From the human T2T-CHM13v2.0 reference genome, Homo sapiens, in the NCBI RefSeq assembly GCF_009914755.1, contig NC_060925.1: a DNA stretch of 64,000 nucleotides; one strand, written 5' to 3'. Below, piece after piece: positions 31,131 through 31,460 of the stretch. The notes beneath the pieces are model-generated. The model searched no databases. It was not told where the DNA came from and was given only the letters and a program-made list of their open reading frames with translations. A program made the translations under genes and the position numbers. The first letter of the stretch is position 1; each line of letters begins with the position of its first letter.

Positions 31131-31460
31131 GGCCAGGCGTGGTGGCTCACACCTGTAATTCCAGCACTTTGGAAGGCTGCGGTGGGTGGATCACTTGAGT
31201 TCAGGAGTTTGAGACCAGCCTGACCAACATGGTGAAACCATGTTGCTGCCTGGAATGCTGCTAAATTTACTAAAAATACAAAAATGAGCTGGACGTGGTG
31301 GCATATACACCTGTAGTGCTGGCCACTCAGGAGGCTGAGGCAGGAGACTCGCTTGAACCCAGGAGGCGGAGGTTGCAATGAGCTGAGATTGTGCAACTAC
31401 ACTCCAACCTGGAAGACAGAGAGACTCTGTCTCAAAAAATAAATAAATAAATAAATAAAA
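31131..31460 (+). mobile_element. AluS carrying a ~28-nt templated insertion at the end of the left arm
   Basis: Dimer; consensus 'ccgtctc' is replaced by 'atgttgctgcctggaatgctgctaaatt'. Confidence 0.95.

What the first reader, a model, noticed from the sequence alone, without database searches (positions are those of the whole stretch)
31225..31270. Compound templated insertion in an Alu: snap-back hairpin plus 22-nt copy of DNA 2 kb downstream
Seen: Alu consensus 'gaaaccccgtctctactaaaa' is replaced by 'gaaacc-atgttg-ctgcctggaatgctgctaaatt-tactaaaa'. The first part completes a perfect 9-bp fold-back (caacatggt 31225-31233 / gaa / accatgttg 31237-31245). The second part (31246-31267) matches unique sequence at 33235-33256 (ctgcctggaacgctgctaaatt) at 21/22, and the single difference is CpG>TpG. 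Known: snap-back plus locally templated inserts are signatures of polymerase-theta end joining or replication template switching. Inference: a fossil germline break-repair event with two successive template switches.
Basis: partly seen in the sequence, partly recalled or inferred. Interest (0 to 1): 0.75.

Follow-up and report, generated by a model that had tools for sequence, protein, structure and literature searches.

The report
Fossil DNA-repair scar inside an Alu
In one human Alu repeat, 7 bases are replaced by 28 (6 that mirror the bases just before them and 22 that match a unique spot 2 kb away), most likely the scar of an old germline DNA break patched by copying twice; this is a known kind of mutation, although the same 6-base fold-back turns up in several other Alus.

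Summary
The Alu at 31131-31459 carries a perfect 9-bp hairpin (31225-33 / gaa / 31237-45). It is followed by 22 nt that match 33235-56 at 21 of 22, in direct orientation, 1989 bp downstream. Genome-wide only these two places match at 1 mismatch or fewer, the donor is single-copy, and no other Alu shares the junction. It is therefore neither chance nor a subfamily trait. The likely mechanism is break repair by repeated priming: fold-back, a hop to the resected far side, then joining with a 7-nt loss. Pol theta is not shown. The 22-nt tract, its 2-kb distance and the lack of microhomology at both donor junctions are atypical for it. Multi-template germline insertions are a described class (PMC8421209). 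One addition: the same fold-back occurs in 8 Alus. It is the commonest of 27 comparable 6-mers (8 of 30), its arms covary (p=0.009), and several copies carry further templated pieces. Whether the site is a hotspot was not tested, and a single-base hairpin-correction test was negative. Real, neutral, modest interest.

The parts
31131..31459 (+). Host Alu (S-type by appearance; subfamily label recalled, not tested), body 31131-31433 plus A-rich tail
31225..31233 (+). Left arm of the hairpin (native Alu sequence); 31225-31230 is the template of the fold-back, 31231-31233 the priming stem
31234..31239 (+). 3-nt loop gaa and native acc that pairs with 31231-31233; left breakpoint after 31239
31240..31245 (+). 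Inserted piece 1: 6 nt, reverse complement of 31225-31230
   Evidence: recurrence
31246..31267 (+). Inserted piece 2: 22 nt, direct copy of 33235-33256 with one CpG-type C>T at 31256
31268..31289 (+). Alu resumes at the A-rich linker after loss of 7 nt; 12 of 22 in-register identity with the DNA behind the donor (33257-33278)
   Evidence: (D4)
33235..33256 (+). Donor of piece 2, single-copy unmasked DNA, 1989 bp downstream
31115..31130 (+). Expected left target-site duplication behind a TT/AAAAA site; no right copy found
31460..31474 (+). 15-nt exact copy of 31565-31579 directly behind the Alu tail; link to the finding unknown
   Evidence: (D14)

Best explanation
Seven Alu bases are replaced by a 6-nt mirror copy of the adjacent DNA plus a 22-nt direct copy of single-copy DNA 1989 bp downstream, most likely because a germline double-strand break in this Alu was repaired by repeated short rounds of priming and copying. 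Inferred steps: (1) the left 3' end folded back on a native 3-bp stem with a 3-nt loop and copied 6 nt; (2) it let go and primed on the bottom strand of the right-hand end, exposed by about 2 kb of resection, and copied 22 nt; (3) it let go again and was joined next to the break with loss of 7 nt; (4) a CpG in the copy later decayed. The polymerase is not identified (Pol theta or a Pol delta/MMBIR-like activity). No function is expected: it is a neutral scar.
For: Shown: anatomy and uniqueness. In-cis fold-back: the same 21-nt hairpin lies in 8 Alus, with 15 distinct right junctions among 18 loci of the wider pattern. It is 8 of 30 matches among 27 comparable 6-mers (p 1e-5 if uniform). Outer arm bases covary: C-G 9, C-A 3, T-G 0, T-A 6, Fisher p=0.009. 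These counts include this locus. Other copies carry further templated pieces: L008, L047 and L060. Polarity: a direct copy from the far side is what one end priming on the other resected end gives, and an inverted copy is what a hairpin gives; longer inserts take several rounds (PMC7165422). Meiotic resection reaches about 2 kb (PMC7615360 passage). Germline insertions with reverse-then-forward templates are described (PMC8421209).
Against: Microhomology is 0 nt at both donor junctions as the sequence stands, whereas 138 of 155 and 135 of 148 junctions in PMC8421209 have at least 1 nt; only 25% of Pol theta first-round primings have 2 nt or more, which softens this. A 22-nt tract at 2 kb is outside the usual Pol theta range: distal templates are under 0.1% of repair. 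The first 4 nt of piece 1 also arise by point mutation (30 of the first 100 of 1721 rows). The pre-event sequence is inferred from other Alus, not from an ortholog.
Confidence: 0.55

Rival explanations
1. Fold-back plus fragment capture: the left end made the 6-nt fold-back, and a free 22-nt piece released nearby (resection product, flap or short cDNA) was ligated in by end joining.
For: Blunt junctions on both sides of the 22-mer. In yeast, fold-back synthesis by Pol delta finished by NHEJ and capture of fragments with 0-4 nt microhomology are shown (PMC11724301 passages). Class 2 TSIPs are patches of this kind (PMC5110952 passages).
Against: A free piece could enter in either orientation and from anywhere; this one is direct and from the side that the priming model predicts (a weak, one-in-several argument). 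The experimental inserts quoted in PMC5110952 are 73-414 bp.
Confidence: 0.18
2. Replication template switching without a two-ended break (fork stalling/MMBIR type): the nascent strand folded back, hopped about 2 kb ahead within the fork, and returned.
For: Piece 1 has the order of a short-range '3-2-1-4' switch (10.1101/038380 passages). The product is the same as in the best explanation.
Against: It needs about 2 kb of accessible template ahead of the 3' end and two switches without microhomology.
Confidence: 0.14
3. The insert marks the junction of a larger deletion that fused the left part of one Alu to the right part of another. This can be combined with any of the copying mechanisms.
For: No right target-site duplication (score 2). 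The right half differs from the majority at 12 of 130 columns, the left at 4 of 84.
Against: Only 57 of 99 full-length Alus show a duplication by the same script (control 1 of 150), so absence is common. The halves meet within 7 nt of register. The difference in divergence is small and was not tested for significance.
Confidence: 0.08
4. The hairpin is accidental: the Alu already read ccatgt through two point mutations, and only the 22-mer plus 2 untemplated bases were inserted.
For: About 500 Alus carry that variant (30 of the first 100 of 1721 rows), and it shows no excess over independent mutation (Fisher p 0.68 and 0.22).
Against: It needs a rare starting allele and two further bases matching by chance; full 9-bp hairpins are enriched and covary elsewhere.
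Confidence: 0.04
5. Chance match, Alu subfamily feature or assembly artefact.
For: None found. Reads were not available to test the assembly.
Against. The CpG-type difference between copy and donor is not expected from a chimeric read.
Confidence: 0.01

Closest known systems
Complex germline MMB-TI events (Osia et al. 2021, PMC8421209; section 10 part 1 and passages read, supplement searched)
   Same: Insertion of 25 nt or more from several templates, first reverse then forward; germline; no larger rearrangement seen
   Different: Most of their junctions have microhomology. This one lies in the reference assembly itself. Three junction strings were not found in their supplement
Pol theta templated insertions, TINS (Carvajal-Garcia et al. 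2020, PMC7165422; section 7 part 1 and passages read)
   Same: Inverted piece from a hairpin, direct piece from the other end, several rounds, total length within 3-30 bp
   Different: Template at 1989 bp, not within about 30 bp; one tract of 22 nt, not under 10; no microhomology at the donor
Short-range template switch mutations (Loytynoja and Goldman, 10.1101/038380; Walker et al. 2021, PMC7954356; passages read, one supplement table searched)
   Same: Piece 1 is a '3-2-1-4' type event that perfects an inverted repeat
   Different: The first survey left out repeat-masked and under-14-nt fragments. The model has no forward 2-kb piece. No chr1 row at 18.54-18.58 Mb in Walker's table (the GRCh38 position is my estimate from a recalled PAX7 coordinate)
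Foldback inversions and captured fragments at yeast breaks (Yu et al., PMC11724301; passages read)
   Same: Short fold-back of 5-34 nt finished by end joining with little microhomology
   Different: Yeast, induced break, 10-bp primer with a 41-nt loop
Class 2 templated sequence insertion polymorphisms (PMC5110952; passages read)
   Same: No duplication or poly(A) at the insert, microdeletion, donor intact
   Different: Their donors are distant and their inserts longer; polymorphism not known here

Membership tests
Pol theta TINS | Inverted piece of 5 nt or more, reverse complement of flanking DNA, primed from a hairpin | tested here: met
   6 nt on a 3-bp stem
Pol theta TINS | Direct piece templated from the other resected end (orientation) | tested here: met
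   same strand, downstream side
Pol theta TINS | Template typically within about 30 bp; tract rarely over 10 nt | tested here: not met
   piece 2: 1989 bp away, 22 nt; piece 1 meets it
Pol theta TINS | Microhomology at priming and resolving junctions | tested here: inconclusive
   3 nt for piece 1, 0 and 0 for piece 2; only 25% of TINS have 2 nt or more; ancestral bases unknown
Pol theta TINS | AT enrichment of the insert | tested here: inconclusive
   55% against 50% locally
Pol theta TINS | Dependence on POLQ | not testable with these tools
   fossil event
Complex germline MMB-TI | Insertion of 25 nt or more from two or more templates | tested here: met
   28 nt, two templates
Complex germline MMB-TI | At least 1 nt microhomology at most junctions | tested here: inconclusive
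   1 of 3 junctions; 17 of 155 and 13 of 148 published junctions also have none
Short-range four-point template switch | Fragment copied in reverse complement from nearby, then direct return | tested here: not met
   true of piece 1 only; the return is interrupted by the forward 22-mer
Class 2 TSIP | Distant donor | tested here: not met
   donor 2 kb away
Class 2 TSIP | Polymorphic in humans | not testable with these tools
   no variant data; rough dating favours an old event
Alu subfamily diagnostic insertion | Shared by several Alu copies | tested here: not met
   junction 21-mer exact at this place only; the one 1-mismatch hit shows no Alu context; six 2-mismatch hits not opened

The most novel reading that the evidence does not exclude
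The 3-bp stem with a 3-nt loop just before the Alu A-rich linker is a recurrent germline fold-back hotspot. Independent Alus broke here and were repaired by fold-back, often followed by further templated rounds, and this locus is the extreme member, with a hop to the far end of a 2-kb resection tract. Alu copies would then be a ready-made, datable reporter of templated-insertion repair across primate evolution, in sequence that at least one earlier template-switch survey masked out.
Probability: 0.3. Interest if true: 0.55.

Novelty: new member of a known kind. Interest (0 to 1): 0.3.

Why it matters
As a single event it matters little: it is intergenic, in no listed enhancer, and of a described class. 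It is a clean example that one germline repair event can use templates 10 bp and 2 kb from the break. The more useful point is one of method. Because the pre-event sequence of an Alu is known from its many siblings, Alu-internal scars can be read without an outgroup. A census could measure template distance, side, orientation and microhomology for germline templated insertions, and so weigh Pol theta against capture or fork switching.

Tried and rejected
(1) Subfamily feature or common 22-mer: rejected. (2) A neighbouring inverted Alu as template of piece 1: the 9-mer occurs on this strand only at 31237, 50037 and 59760, and the inverted Alu at 30497-30788 differs in it; 4 of the 17 other loci do have such a copy within 1.5 kb. 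(3) A 2-kb periodic duplication linking the 22-mer pair (offset 1989) to the 205-bp duplication at offset 1994: no homology on those diagonals in between. (4) Widespread single-base correction of the Alu quasi-palindrome: it first looked strong (first 100 of 1113 rows, Fisher p 2e-4) but vanished with proper controls (first 100 of 362 and of 1721 rows; p 0.22 and 0.68). These rows were counted by eye and cover only the first chromosomes. (5) Covariation at a third stem position: uninformative. Of 15 matches, 14 have G in the left arm, and the A-T hairpin class has none. (6) Distant donors at other hairpin Alus: none among 23 loci, but only two pieces of 10 nt or more were tested (L047 was mis-parsed, L058 and L059 not parsed) and the loci reach only 1.5 kb. 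(7) The first target-site script failed on many loci and was replaced. (8) The in-register 12 of 22 identity behind the donor (0.6% of 8586 non-Alu positions nearby) and loose pairing of the donor's first 8 nt with the left arm were noticed after the fact and are not counted as support. (9) Literature: searches. One search (Alu, templated insertion, snap-back, A-rich linker; 3 of 4 terms) found no paper. One large supplement of PMC7954356 could not be read and the supplement store did not answer, so this locus could be listed there. Earlier scan findings were not available.

Full report
Observation. An Alu starts at 31131. Aligned with 23 other Alus of the window, it alone has a net 21-nt insertion just before the A-rich linker: 7 ordinary bases are gone and 28 are new. 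The first 6 new bases (31240-31245) extend a native 3-bp stem to a perfect 9-bp hairpin with a 3-nt loop (predicted -7.6 kcal/mol as DNA, z -4.5). The next 22 (31246-31267) equal 33235-33256 but for T in place of a CpG C.

Chance and uniqueness. No shuffle of the window gave a match. In the whole genome the 22-mer pattern has 4 matches at up to 2 mismatches: the two here, and two with 2 mismatches on other chromosomes. The 301 bases around the donor match only themselves (this search skips very common words). The junction 21-mer is exact only here; its one 1-mismatch hit shows no Alu context. In a self-comparison of the window, 23 of 1039 near-exact repeats of 20 nt or more remained after removing Alu-Alu and low-complexity pairs. 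Most look like other dispersed repeats, one set is an old 205-bp duplication, and this pair stands alone.

Is the hairpin templated? The same 21-nt hairpin lies in 8 Alus genome-wide, with stems of 9 or 10 bp and mostly different right junctions. Among 27 six-mers at the same distance from a common CpG-decayed form, the hairpin-completing one takes 8 of 30 matches (p 1e-5 against uniform). With both arms left free, 13 of 18 matches are perfect hairpins, and the outer bases covary (C-G 9, C-A 3, T-G 0, T-A 6; Fisher p 0.009). These counts include this locus and one pair of chrY paralogs. The 18 loci have 15 distinct right junctions. Several are compound: L008 adds an inverted copy of the right end, L047 about 100 nt of alternating inverted and direct copies, and L060 direct re-copies of the left end. 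At this locus no same-strand copy of the arm lies within 18 kb, so fold-back in cis is the simplest source. Against: the first four new bases alone are common as point mutations (about 500 Alus, from 30 of the first 100 of 1721 rows), and at that level there is no excess for hairpin-perfecting changes (p 0.68 and 0.22). I did not count how many Alus could have undergone the event, and I did not test other Alu positions, so recurrence is shown but a hotspot is not.

Mechanism. Shown: two templated pieces, one inverted and adjacent, one direct and 1989 bp downstream, with a 7-nt loss. Inferred: a break after 31239, fold-back and 6 nt of synthesis, release, priming on the bottom strand of the right-hand end, 22 nt of synthesis, release, and joining at 31268. 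The direct orientation fits priming on the other resected end, and multi-round inserts are expected (PMC7165422, section 7 part 1 read). About 2 kb is the stated reach of meiotic resection (PMC7615360, passage). The enzyme is open. Pol theta templates are typically within 30 bp, tracts rarely exceed 10 bp, and distal templates are under 0.1% of repair. Neither donor junction shows microhomology. Yeast makes short fold-backs with Pol delta and NHEJ and captures fragments, and that paper cites work finding POLQ dispensable for templated insertions at Cas9 breaks (PMC11724301, passages). Capture of a free 22-nt piece and fork switching therefore remain live rivals.

Age. One CpG change and no other change in 52 non-CpG site-copies give, with mutation rates that I assumed and a flat 0-40 My prior, a best estimate of 9-22 My (95% about 2-39 My) and under 1% for less than 1 My. 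This is weak, since the T could be a copying error or a donor allele. No primate genomes were available.

Loose ends. The Alu has a likely left target-site sequence but no right copy; 57 of 99 Alus have one by the same script, so this is weak evidence for a fused two-Alu junction. Directly behind the tail, 15 nt repeat 31565-31579 exactly, possibly a second templated patch. The 22 nt behind the donor match the Alu linker in register at 12 of 22 (0.6% of nearby non-Alu positions); this was noticed after the fact and is unexplained.

Comparison. Complex germline insertions copied from several templates, first reverse then forward, were found at 33 and 26 per person (PMC8421209, section 10 part 1). 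This event fits that class in anatomy, with less microhomology than most. It works like a Pol theta templated insertion but fails the distance and tract-length features, so I do not file it as one. Short-range switch surveys describe piece 1's type; the first excluded repeat-masked and short fragments (10.1101/038380, passages), and the word Alu does not occur in the main text of PMC7954356. I did not find this locus or the Alu-site recurrence in print, within a library that lacks most subscription papers and with some supplements unreadable.

Verdict. Real, old, most likely neutral; a new member of a known kind; interest 0.3. The bolder reading, a recurrent fold-back hotspot in Alu usable as a genome-wide reporter, has probability about 0.3 and would deserve about 0.55.

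Noticed in passing
window 26020-26223 and 28014-28218: 205-bp direct local duplication, 86% identical, spacing 1994, only two copies in the genome. The first copy lies inside the RefSeq enhancer 25929-26436.
   Followed up: partly
window 31460-31474 and 31565-31579: Exact 15-nt repeat (17 of 18) directly behind the Alu tail, where the right target-site duplication should be; possibly a second templated patch.
   Followed up: partly
L047 (G000:C12:30415108, minus strand): About 100-nt multi-round insertion of alternating inverted and direct local copies at the same Alu position.
   Followed up: partly
L008 (G000:C5:176934990) and L060 (G000:C17:480822), minus strand: Compound inserts at the same Alu site: fold-back plus an inverted copy of the right end (L008); fold-back plus direct re-copies of the left end (L060).
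   Followed up: partly
L059 (G000:C12:121064944, minus strand): After the hairpin the sequence continues as inverted Alu-like DNA, a possible inversion junction.
   Followed up: no
window 31303-31326: Cluster of changes in the right monomer of the same Alu (2-nt insertion; differences at 31318, 31320, 31321, 31324), source not looked for.
   Followed up: no
window 58164-58255: 36-nt inverted pair (starts 58164 and 58220) with a short internal direct repeat; looks like a small inverted-repeat element.
   Followed up: no
window 9638-9662 and 11613-11637: Inverted 25-nt match at spacing 1975; the flanks look like two copies of an old dispersed repeat, not a templated insert.
   Followed up: partly
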